IMG/VR virus record: IMGVR_UViG_2541047884_000012
Strand: one strand, 5' to 3'
DNA: 20,483 bases
From: a virus
Lineage: Duplodnaviria > Heunggongvirae > Uroviricota > Caudoviricetes
The translations under genes and the position numbers were made by a program. How positions within the stretch are numbered: position 1 is the first letter of the stretch; every line of letters begins with the position of its first letter. This document shows, in pieces, positions 16,610 to 16,717 of this stretch. The notes below the pieces were generated by a model. The model made no database searches, had not been told where the DNA came from, and saw only the letters and a program-made list of their open reading frames with translations.

Positions 16610-16717
16610 ACCCTCAGGCCTAATGCTTACCGGAAGGAAATTAACCCTAAGGGTGATGGTAAAATTGACGGGGAAGAAAAAAATACCCTCAGGGTAACAG
16701 TAAATCACCCTCAGGGT
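16610..16717. promoter_or_regulatory. Array of ACCCT-N-AGGGT palindromes (three full, one half-site) upstream of alpA
   Basis: ACCCTCAGG half-site (16610-16620), ACCCTAAGGGT (16644-16654), ACCCTCAGGGT (16685-16695), ACCCTCAGGGT (16707-16717). The last two are exactly 22 bp apart. Located in the 190-bp gap between the 267-aa gene stop and the alpA start. Confidence 0.55.

What the first reader, a model, noticed from the sequence alone, without database searches (positions are those of the whole stretch)
16610..16717. ACCCT-N-AGGGT palindrome array in the alpA upstream region
Seen: three full palindromes plus one half-site in the 190-bp gap upstream of alpA, two of them exactly 22 bp apart (same face of the helix). 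This is a different operator family from the GTGTT-N-AACAC set, so the element appears to carry at least two distinct operator-regulator circuits. Inference: binding sites for AlpA itself (autoregulation) or for an unidentified repressor controlling alpA and hence excision.
Basis: partly seen in the sequence, partly recalled or inferred. Interest (0 to 1): 0.5.

Follow-up and report, generated by a model that had tools for sequence, protein, structure and literature searches.

The report
Operator array guarding a satellite's alpA switch
The repeated ACCCT-N-AGGGT palindromes upstream of alpA are real, conserved protein-binding sites that always travel with the uncharacterised gene just upstream, making that gene a candidate for the unknown regulator that keeps this phage-satellite island silent until a helper phage arrives.

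Summary
ACCCTNAGGGT occurs exactly three times in the window (16644, 16685, 16707), where chance predicts none. A fourth, composite site lies at 16610-16627. All four sit in the 192-bp gap between a 265-aa ORF and alpA, in a PICI-like island at tRNA-Thr/proA.

Across Enterobacterales the half-sites stay fixed at about -211, -179, -156, -113 and -80 from the alpA ATG. Spacings are multiples of about 11 bp, while the centre base and the spacers drift freely.

In an AlpA-seeded sample of 61 non-redundant loci, the sites are present in all 28 loci that encode the C-terminal domain of the upstream protein. They are absent from all 33 loci that lack it, even when the AlpA N-terminal half, which holds the predicted recognition helix, is identical. 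AlpA is therefore not the specificity determinant.

My best reading is a phased operator array for the upstream leucine-zipper protein, which belongs to an orphan family. The array controls the alpA promoter, most likely by repression. In this E. coli lineage the distal pair plus a U-tract also folds into a textbook intrinsic terminator.

DNA binding by the protein and the direction of regulation are inferred, not shown.

The parts
16707..16717 (.). O4: ACCCTCAGGGT palindrome. Distal operator and 5' arm of the minus-strand terminator hairpin.
   Evidence: Exact match. The equivalent site sits at about -177 to -180 from the alpA ATG in all Enterobacterales relatives.
16685..16695 (.). O3: ACCCTCAGGGT palindrome, 22 bp from O4. 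3' arm of the terminator hairpin.
   Evidence: Exact match. The equivalent site sits at about -155 to -157 in relatives.
16644..16654 (.). O2: ACCCTAAGGGT palindrome. It lies inside a 33-bp unit that is present in 1 to 3 tandem copies in other E. coli strains.
   Evidence: The equivalent site sits at about -112 to -114 in relatives.
16610..16627 (.). O1: composite, degenerate 18-bp element. Plus strand reads ACCCTCAGGCCTAATGCT. Outer half-sites are ACCCT and an ACCAT-like sequence separated by 8 bp. It abuts the promoter-proximal conserved block. The window carries a private C (others have G) at 16626.
   Evidence: Variants in relatives are CCCTCATGCCTGAGGG and CCATTAGGCCTAATGG.
16674..16719 (-). 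Predicted intrinsic terminator for the int/265-aa transcript. The hairpin spans 16719-16683 and is formed by O4 pairing with O3. It is followed by a U-rich tract at 16682-16674 (UUUUUUCUU).
   Evidence: RNA fold gives -24.8 kcal/mol with z = -5.0, and 0 of 200 shuffles fold as well. Also supported by the terminator scan and the comparison across lineages.
16579..16587 (-). Candidate extended -10 element of the alpA promoter (TGCCATGAT on the minus strand). There is no -35 consensus. This is an inference.
   Evidence: TGnNATNAT is conserved in 7 of 7 divergent site-bearing lineages and occurs at -46/-47 in 27 of the 61 non-redundant loci scanned. The consensus promoter scan finds nothing.
16343..16540 (-). 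alpA (65 aa), the regulated gene.
   Evidence: Pfam Phage_AlpA, E = 2.4e-19.
16733..17530 (-). 265-aa ORF and candidate cognate regulator. It has a variable N-terminal domain, a leucine-zipper coiled coil (about 16973-17032) and a conserved four-helix C-terminal domain (CTD, about 16766-16972).
   Evidence: Co-occurrence with the sites is shown.

Best explanation
The four elements are a helically phased operator array in the upstream control region of the alpA promoter of a Gram-negative PICI-type phage satellite. They are most likely bound by dimers of the protein encoded immediately upstream. That 265-aa protein has a variable N-terminal domain, a leucine zipper, and a conserved orphan C-terminal domain (CTD).

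Proposed mechanism:
- The protein is made in the quiescent island together with integrase.
- It occupies O1 to O4 on one face of the helix. O1 abuts or overlaps the core promoter, so alpA stays off.
- A helper-phage signal, sensed through the variable N-terminal part, releases the protein. AlpA is then made and amplifies its own expression.

In this E. coli lineage O4 and O3, together with the following U-tract, also act at the RNA level. They form an intrinsic terminator that stops int/265-aa read-through into alpA.

What is shown: the sites are real, they are under selection, their positions are fixed, and they are linked to the CTD gene and not to the AlpA type. What is inferred: that the CTD protein binds them, that the effect is repression, and where the promoter lies.
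For: 1. Non-random occurrence: 3 exact sites against 0 expected.

2. Selection on the sites.
- In alignments of seven lineages from different genera, only the ACCCTNAGGGT blocks and the promoter-proximal ~100 nt are conserved. Spacers are unalignable and the centre base varies freely.
- Site positions relative to the alpA ATG are fixed within 1-3 bp, at about -211, -179, -156, -113 and -80. This holds in E. coli, Kluyvera, Raoultella, Pantoea, Symbiopectobacterium, Salmonella and Serratia.
- Spacings cluster at 22-23, 32-34, 42-44 and 54-56 bp, that is 2 to 5 helical turns.
- Shuffled controls give 0.06 sites per region.
- Natural indels remove or add 22- or 33-bp units, which preserves phase.

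3. Linkage to the CTD.
- L022 shares only the zipper and CTD with the window protein yet has the sites.
- All CTD-seeded loci in Enterobacterales have the sites.
- The AlpA-seeded 2x2 table is 28/0/0/33.

4. The site variant tracks the CTD subtype.
- TRGNQ-type CTDs go with ACCCTNAGGGT.
- SIPSQ-type CTDs (Cedecea, Atlantibacter, Xenorhabdus) go with ACC(C/A)TNA(T/G)(A/G)GT.
- Pasteurellaceae APKA-type CTDs go with TACTATGATAGTA.

5. A remote CTD homologue (hhalign 93%, E = 3e-7) occupies the same slot with different repeats.

6. A zipper-dimer architecture fits palindromic sites.

7. Terminator: -24.8 kcal/mol, z = -5, followed by a U-tract.

8. Biological context: alpA promoters of GN-PICIs are silent until a helper phage is induced, and the responsible factor is unknown (PMC6092414; PMC11773190).
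Against: - The CTD gene and the sites are physically adjacent. Co-inheritance as a block could produce the association without any binding.
- The direction of regulation is open. O1 lies at about -43 from the TSS implied by the conserved extended -10, and the promoter has no -35. That geometry also fits class II activation.
- The TSS is not mapped.
- A Sodalis locus with a decayed CTD gene still keeps two sites.
- The U-tract, and therefore the terminator, is not conserved outside E. coli-type lineages.
Confidence: 0.55

Rival explanations
1. The palindromes are bound by a factor that is not encoded next to them, such as a helper-phage activator or anti-repressor target, or a host transcription factor. 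They travel with the upstream gene only because the two are adjacent.
For: Helper-phage induction of alpA promoters is documented and the inducer is unknown (PMC6092414; PMC11773190). The CTD shows no known DNA-binding fold. The promoter lacks a -35 element, and O1 sits at about -43 from the inferred TSS, a classic activator position.
Against: - The association is perfect (28/0/0/33) in a mosaic region where recombination otherwise shuffles modules.
- The site sequence changes together with the CTD subtype, including in Pasteurellaceae.
- No paired sites were found in enterobacterial phage contigs of IMG/VR. All enteric hits were PICI-like loci.
- I know of no host factor with this motif (own knowledge).
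Confidence: 0.2
2. The sites are AlpA autoregulatory or excision sites.
For: AlpA activates its own promoter in EcCICFT073 and contributes to activation in EcCIMP1. The sites lie in the alpA upstream region.
Against: - 33 non-redundant AlpA loci lack any site, most of them (28) with the same recognition-helix sequence type as the window.
- Loci with identical AlpA N-terminal halves differ in site presence: L145 against L146, L153/L155 against L157, and L158 against L160.
- L006, with 97% identical AlpA, has none.
- Small AlpA/Xis-type winged-helix proteins typically bind direct repeats as monomers (own knowledge). P. aeruginosa AlpA binds a single asymmetric hexamer as a monomer (PMC9371919).
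Confidence: 0.1
3. The element is purely an RNA-level signal, either an intrinsic terminator or an attenuator between the upstream gene and alpA. On this reading the palindromes are just hairpin arms.
For: The hairpin of -24.8 kcal/mol (z = -5) plus U-tract fits exactly. L004-type relatives have complementary centre bases, which gives a perfect 11-bp stem followed by a T-rich tail (TATTTTTGT). A separate terminator occupies the same place in a Pantoea locus.
Against: - O2 and O1 are not part of any hairpin.
- The U-tract is absent in most genera.
- L021-type E. coli loci keep only one distal copy.
- The half-sites are invariant while the centre base varies without consistent complementarity (4 of 7 lineages).
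- Conserved ~11-bp phasing and fixed distances to the promoter are properties of DNA-protein recognition, not of RNA.
Confidence: 0.1
4. The sites are non-functional repeats produced by local duplication.
For: The 33-bp unit that contains O2 varies in copy number between strains.
Against: The sites are conserved at fixed positions across genera although the flanking spacers are saturated with change.
Confidence: 0.03

Closest known systems
SaPI Stl / Gram-positive PICI Rpr master repressor with its operators
   Same: Both would be satellite-encoded regulators expressed in the quiescent state. Both have multiple operators in the control region of the genes that start the satellite cycle. Both have a variable sensor part and a conserved DNA-site specificity, and both give a helper-phage-dependent switch.
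   Different: There is no sequence or fold similarity. Here the DNA-contacting part is C-terminal, behind a zipper. The gene is co-oriented with and upstream of its target, not divergent from it. The target is an activator gene (alpA). Repression and anti-repression have not been demonstrated.
Gram-negative PICI regulatory zone (int-alpA; EcCICFT073, EcCIMP1)
   Same: The island architecture is the same: int, alpA, a Bro/AntA zone and a primase. The attachment site is the same as EcCIMP1 (tRNA-Thr next to proA). alpA is the helper-induced, autoactivated master switch.
   Different: The one described island checked here, EcCIMP1, has neither this gene nor these sites; EcCICFT073 itself was not fetched. 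The papers found in the library searches describe no operator or repressor for PalpA.
Phased lambdoid or P22-type operator arrays with cooperative dimers
   Same: Both use short palindromes bound by dimers. Copies are spaced by integral helical turns and overlap a promoter.
   Different: The half-sites are only 6 bp apart centre to centre (5-1-5). That geometry is closer to bZIP/AP-1-like sites than to HTH operators. The array extends about 140 bp upstream.
Intrinsic (Rho-independent) terminator
   Same: The O4-O3 pair forms a GC-rich 15-bp stem followed by a U-tract, just downstream of a stop codon.
   Different: The stem arms are themselves palindromic protein-site-like sequences. They are conserved as DNA motifs where no U-tract exists.

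Membership tests
Gram-negative PICI / PICI-like satellite | Tyrosine integrase next to a tRNA att site, co-oriented alpA, a Bro/AntA zone and a D5/P4-type primase, with no phage structural module in the core | tested here: met
   Int, AlpA, AntA and primase are identified. tRNA lies at 19043-19115. proA and tRNA-Thr flank the element in relatives. Mobilisation by a helper phage was not tested.
Intrinsic terminator | Stable GC-rich hairpin immediately followed by a U-tract on the transcribed strand, downstream of a gene | tested here: met
   -24.8 kcal/mol, z = -5.0, with a U-rich tract (UUUUUUCUU) at 16682-16674, 14 nt after the stop codon.
Intrinsic terminator | Hairpin plus U-tract conserved in orthologous positions | tested here: not met
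   It is present only in E. coli W-type and L004-type lineages. It is absent in Kluyvera, Raoultella, Pantoea L061, Symbiopectobacterium, Salmonella, Proteus and Serratia.
AlpA / Xis-type RDF binding sites | Sites co-vary with, or at least co-occur with, the cognate AlpA | tested here: not met
   Among 61 non-redundant AlpA loci, 33 have no sites. Identical AlpA N-terminal halves occur with and without sites.
Transcription-factor operator array | Motif conserved under purifying selection at fixed positions relative to a promoter while the flanks diverge | tested here: met
Transcription-factor operator array | Demonstrated binding by the cognate protein | not testable with these tools
   Only genomic co-occurrence and co-variation of site with CTD subtype are available.
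SaPI Stl-type master repressor module | Regulator carries a recognisable DNA-binding domain (HTH) | tested here: not met
   No HTH or other DNA-binding family was detected by any sequence or fold search. The AF2 model of the CTD is a four-helix domain of unassigned fold.
SaPI Stl-type master repressor module | Repressor divergently transcribed from the genes it controls, and de-repressed by a helper-phage protein | tested here: not met
   The gene is co-oriented with alpA. De-repression cannot be tested here.
bZIP transcription factor (the PGAP label on one homologue) | Basic DNA-contact region immediately N-terminal to the leucine zipper | tested here: not met
   Pfam bZIP hits are below threshold and cover only the zipper. 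The residues N-terminal to the zipper are acidic (EAQGRDIEKKELRTEDD).
Replication-origin iterons | Repeat array adjacent to or within the replication (pri/rep) module | tested here: not met
   The array is 3.6 kb from the primase gene (11158-12972). GN-PICI origins lie downstream of pri (PMC10111431).

The most novel reading that the evidence does not exclude
The zipper+CTD protein encoded between int and alpA is the missing helper-phage-sensing master repressor of a large subgroup of Gram-negative PICIs, functionally analogous to Stl. Its hypervariable N-terminal domain is a separate, translationally coupled protein in Salmonella, Proteus, Pantoea and Serratia. That domain would capture a helper-phage protein, release the phased ACCCT-N-AGGGT operator array, and fire alpA. 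The int-alpA slot as a whole would then be a swap-in cassette, made of regulator plus operators, that sets helper specificity.
Probability: 0.3. Interest if true: 0.8.

Novelty: new variant of a known kind. Interest (0 to 1): 0.6.

Why it matters
How helper phages switch on Gram-negative PICIs is an open question. alpA transcription is known to be helper-dependent, but no operator, repressor or inducer has been identified (PMC6092414; PMC11773190).

This analysis gives three concrete things to work with:
- a precisely defined cis element, with half-site, phasing and positions;
- a single candidate trans factor from an unannotated protein family;
- a natural set of module swaps.

Together these make the question directly testable by EMSA, reporter assays and gene deletion.

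It also shows a compact dual-use element, in which one pair of DNA operators doubles as an RNA terminator. Finally, it shows that the int-alpA interval is a hypervariable regulatory cassette and not simply accessory cargo.

Tried and rejected
1. The window is not EcCIMP1. It shares the att site, but EcCIMP1 has a different alpA and primase, no 265-aa gene and no sites.

3. Mimicry of phage operators is not supported. A scan of IMG/VR for paired sites returned only PICI-like loci among enterics. The other hits were unrelated tandem repeats, hairpins, or a promoter-like motif in a 127-kb contig.

4. No known RNA family covers 16541-16732.

5. The consensus sigma-70 promoter scan found nothing in the gap. 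The promoter assignment therefore rests only on a conserved extended -10-like motif. A second candidate, TGAAAATAT, abuts O1 and is less conserved.

6. I considered the restriction-site reading. The core CCTNAGG is the SauI/Bsu36I/Eco81I recognition sequence (own knowledge). I rejected it because conservation extends to the outer A/T positions, degenerate functional-looking variants break CCTNAGG, and the sites are phased relative to a promoter.

7. I rejected integrase arm sites. The array is about 2.4 kb from the tRNA att core, and the sites are unchanged across integrases of 38-99% identity.

8. I rejected AntA/Bro or the 420-aa protein as binder. Both are absent or replaced in site-bearing loci.

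Full report
**Observation.** The window carries a PICI-like island on the minus strand.
- Gene order is tRNA (19043-19115), integrase (17659-18873), a 265-aa ORF (16733-17530), alpA (16343-16540), an AntA-family gene, a 420-aa ORF with an Icd-like C-terminus, and a D5/P4-type primase.
- In E. coli relatives the element sits at tRNA-Thr beside proA. It is present in 164 of 5,426 complete E. coli genomes.
- ACCCTNAGGGT occurs exactly three times in the window (16644, 16685, 16707) against zero in 100 shuffles. A two-mismatch copy lies at 16610.
- All four are in the 192-bp gap between the 265-aa ORF and alpA.

**The sites are under selection as DNA motifs.**
- Among E. coli relatives the ten half-site bases are invariant, while the centre base is C, A or T and the spacers differ.
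- The 33-bp unit that carries O2 is present in one to three copies. One lineage has lost a 22-bp unit. Both kinds of indel preserve helical phase.
- In lineages from Kluyvera, Raoultella, Pantoea, Symbiopectobacterium, Salmonella, Proteus and Serratia the spacers are unalignable. The sites nevertheless persist at about -211, -179, -156, -113 and -80 from the alpA ATG.
- Spacings fall into classes of 22-23, 32-34, 42-44 and 54-56 bp, that is 2 to 5 helical turns.
- Shuffled regions give 0.06 sites with two or fewer mismatches per region.
- The 'half-site' at 16610 is the promoter-proximal part of a conserved 18-bp composite element, O1. Its outer half-sites, ACC(C/A)T and A(G/T)GGT, are separated by 8 bp.

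**What the sites travel with.** The 265-aa protein has no Pfam, PHROG or PDB relative.
- Its homologues share a leucine-zipper coiled coil and a ~70-aa C-terminal domain (CTD). The CTD motif is ERPxLLxxYRxDDPLxLAIxIRNxEWxxYDPxNDRxTRGNQxAIxxxLxxxGFxxxQAxxIExVACPIKR. It lies behind variable N-terminal parts.
- Most family members are ~150 aa. The family is small, with 57 clusters at 50% identity among 1.84 billion representatives.
- A scan of IMG/VR for paired palindromes returned about 30 PICI-like loci. In every one the array lies between a CTD-encoding gene and alpA. One of them (L022) shares only the zipper and CTD with the window protein.
- Loci seeded with the CTD in one genome per species all carry the sites in Enterobacterales. 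So do four further lineages fetched through CTD proteins.
- The decisive, unbiased test was seeded with AlpA. Of 61 non-redundant upstream regions, 28 have the CTD gene and at least two sites, and 33 have neither. None is discordant.
- AlpA proteins with identical N-terminal halves, which hold the predicted recognition helix, occur in both classes (L145 against L146, L153/L155 against L157, L158 against L160). L006, with 97% identical AlpA, has no site.

AlpA is therefore not the specificity determinant.

**Co-variation between site and CTD subtype.**
- CTDs with the TRGNQ segment accompany perfect ACCCTNAGGGT.
- The SIPSQ subtype in Cedecea, Atlantibacter and Xenorhabdus accompanies ACC(C/A)TNA(T/G)(A/G)GT.
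- Pasteurellaceae CTDs (36% identity, APKA segment) are followed by TACTATGATAGTA and related ACTAT/ATAGT repeats.
- A remote homologue of the CTD, ending LRPxxLxxIGRRxKKxK (hhalign 93%, E = 3e-7), occupies the same slot in L006-type islands with a different repeat set.
- Yet another zipper protein in that slot comes with two ACCGCAATTGCGGT palindromes 21 bp apart.

The int-alpA interval thus behaves as a swappable cassette made of a regulator and its operators.

**Second layer: a terminator.**
- On the transcribed strand O4 and O3 pair with each other. The hairpin spans 16719-16683 (-24.8 kcal/mol, z = -5.0, no shuffle as stable). It is followed by a U-rich tract beginning 14 nt after the stop codon of the 265-aa ORF.
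- L004-type E. coli relatives have complementary centre bases, which gives a perfect stem followed by a T-rich tail.
- A Pantoea locus has an independent terminator at the same place.
- Most genera have no U-tract, and one E. coli lineage keeps only one distal copy.

The terminator is therefore a lineage-specific second use of the operator pair, not the reason the motif is conserved.

**Promoter.**
- No consensus sigma-70 promoter is found in the gap.
- An extended -10-like TGnNATNAT (16579-16587 on the minus strand) is conserved in all seven divergent site-bearing lineages. It occurs at -46/-47 in 27 of the 61 non-redundant loci scanned.
- With that assignment O1 is centred near -43, and O2 to O4 near -77, -118 and -140.
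- A less conserved candidate, TGAAAATAT, abuts O1 and would place O1 over the spacer.

The geometry allows either repression or class II-type activation. The TSS has to be mapped.

**Mechanism and confidence.**
- I am confident (about 0.85) that this is a protein-bound, phased operator array controlling alpA.
- I think it more likely than not (about 0.55) that the binder is the 265-aa zipper+CTD protein.
- I favour repression (about 0.35-0.4 overall), for three reasons. The gene lies with int upstream of a terminator, so it should be expressed in the quiescent state. alpA must be silent until a helper phage is induced (PMC6092414; PMC11773190). The family combines a hypervariable N-terminal part with a conserved site specificity, as helper-sensing Stl repressors do.
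- The N-terminal ~100 residues are a separate, overlapping ORF in Salmonella, Proteus, Pantoea and Serratia. That suggests a two-part sensor-effector that is fused in this window.
- Against the model: the CTD model (pLDDT 85.6, four helices) matches no known DNA-binding fold. Adjacency alone could explain the co-inheritance.

**Comparison with what is known.**
- The island is a GN-PICI-type satellite. It is not EcCIMP1, which shares the att site but has neither the gene nor the sites.
- The literature I could search describes AlpA autoactivation and helper dependence, but no operator or repressor at PalpA.
- The element works like a repressor-operator module of the Stl type. It fails the membership tests for that family: no HTH was detected and the gene is not divergent from its target.
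- It is not bZIP, despite one PGAP label, because it has no basic region.

I rate it a new variant of a known kind, with moderate-to-good interest. It makes the induction mechanism of these satellites directly testable.

Noticed in passing
window 17547-17614 (-): Rfam int-alpA RNA motif (RF02996; 39.4 bits against a gathering score of 35.8). It lies between the integrase stop and the start of the 265-aa ORF, so it is upstream of the candidate regulator and not directly upstream of alpA.
   Followed up: no
They lie inside the 420-aa ORF, just upstream of its Icd-like C-terminal domain (NCBIfam phage_ICD_like, residues 372-415). Relatives have a separate ~120-aa Icd-like gene here, so the long ORF may be a fusion or an over-call.
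   Followed up: partly
window 16733-17530 (-); L075, L077, L079, L080: The 265-aa protein looks like a fusion of two genes. In Salmonella, Proteus, Pantoea and Serratia these are separate ORFs, of ~100 aa (homologous to residues 1-100) and ~145-153 aa (zipper+CTD core). The pair overlaps by 4 bp in the first three; in Serratia a 15-bp gap separates them.
   Followed up: partly
L001, L002, L021, L035 compared with window 16610-16717: Operator copy number is polymorphic among E. coli strains. The 33-bp O2 unit is present 1 to 3 times, and one lineage lacks a 22-bp distal unit. Full sites therefore range from 3 to 5 per island.
   Followed up: yes
L008, L112, L134, L143; L105, L113 and similar: The int-alpA slot is hypervariable, with at least six unrelated upstream gene families in AlpA-seeded loci. 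One family (C-terminus ...RTLEAKFAEANKSIK) comes with two ACCGCAATTGCGGT palindromes 21 bp apart. Another (C-terminus ...LRPxxLxxIGRRxKKxK) is a remote CTD homologue with GGTGG/CCACC-type repeats.
   Followed up: partly
window 16551-16575 (-) and relatives: A conserved inverted repeat lies just upstream of the alpA Shine-Dalgarno sequence. It reads CGTAAACCGCAATAGACGTTACG in most lineages and CGTCAAATTGAGTAGACG in the window. It could be a 5'-UTR hairpin or another protein site. It is shared by site-bearing and site-free modules.
   Followed up: no
window 16626: The window carries a private substitution (plus-strand C where all aligned relatives have G) in the distal half of the composite O1 element.
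   Followed up: no
L056 (IMGVR_UViG_3300037313_000197, 127-kb viral contig): ACCCTNAGGGT, mostly TACCCTCAGGGTA, occurs 21 times in 14 kb. Many copies lie about 10 nt downstream of a TGTCAA-like hexamer. It looks like a phage promoter or regulatory motif and is unrelated to the PICI array.
   Followed up: no
L065 (Sodalis MAG): The CTD gene has decayed to an 18-codon remnant, yet one perfect ACCCTGAGGGT and the O1 element persist upstream of an intact alpA.
   Followed up: no
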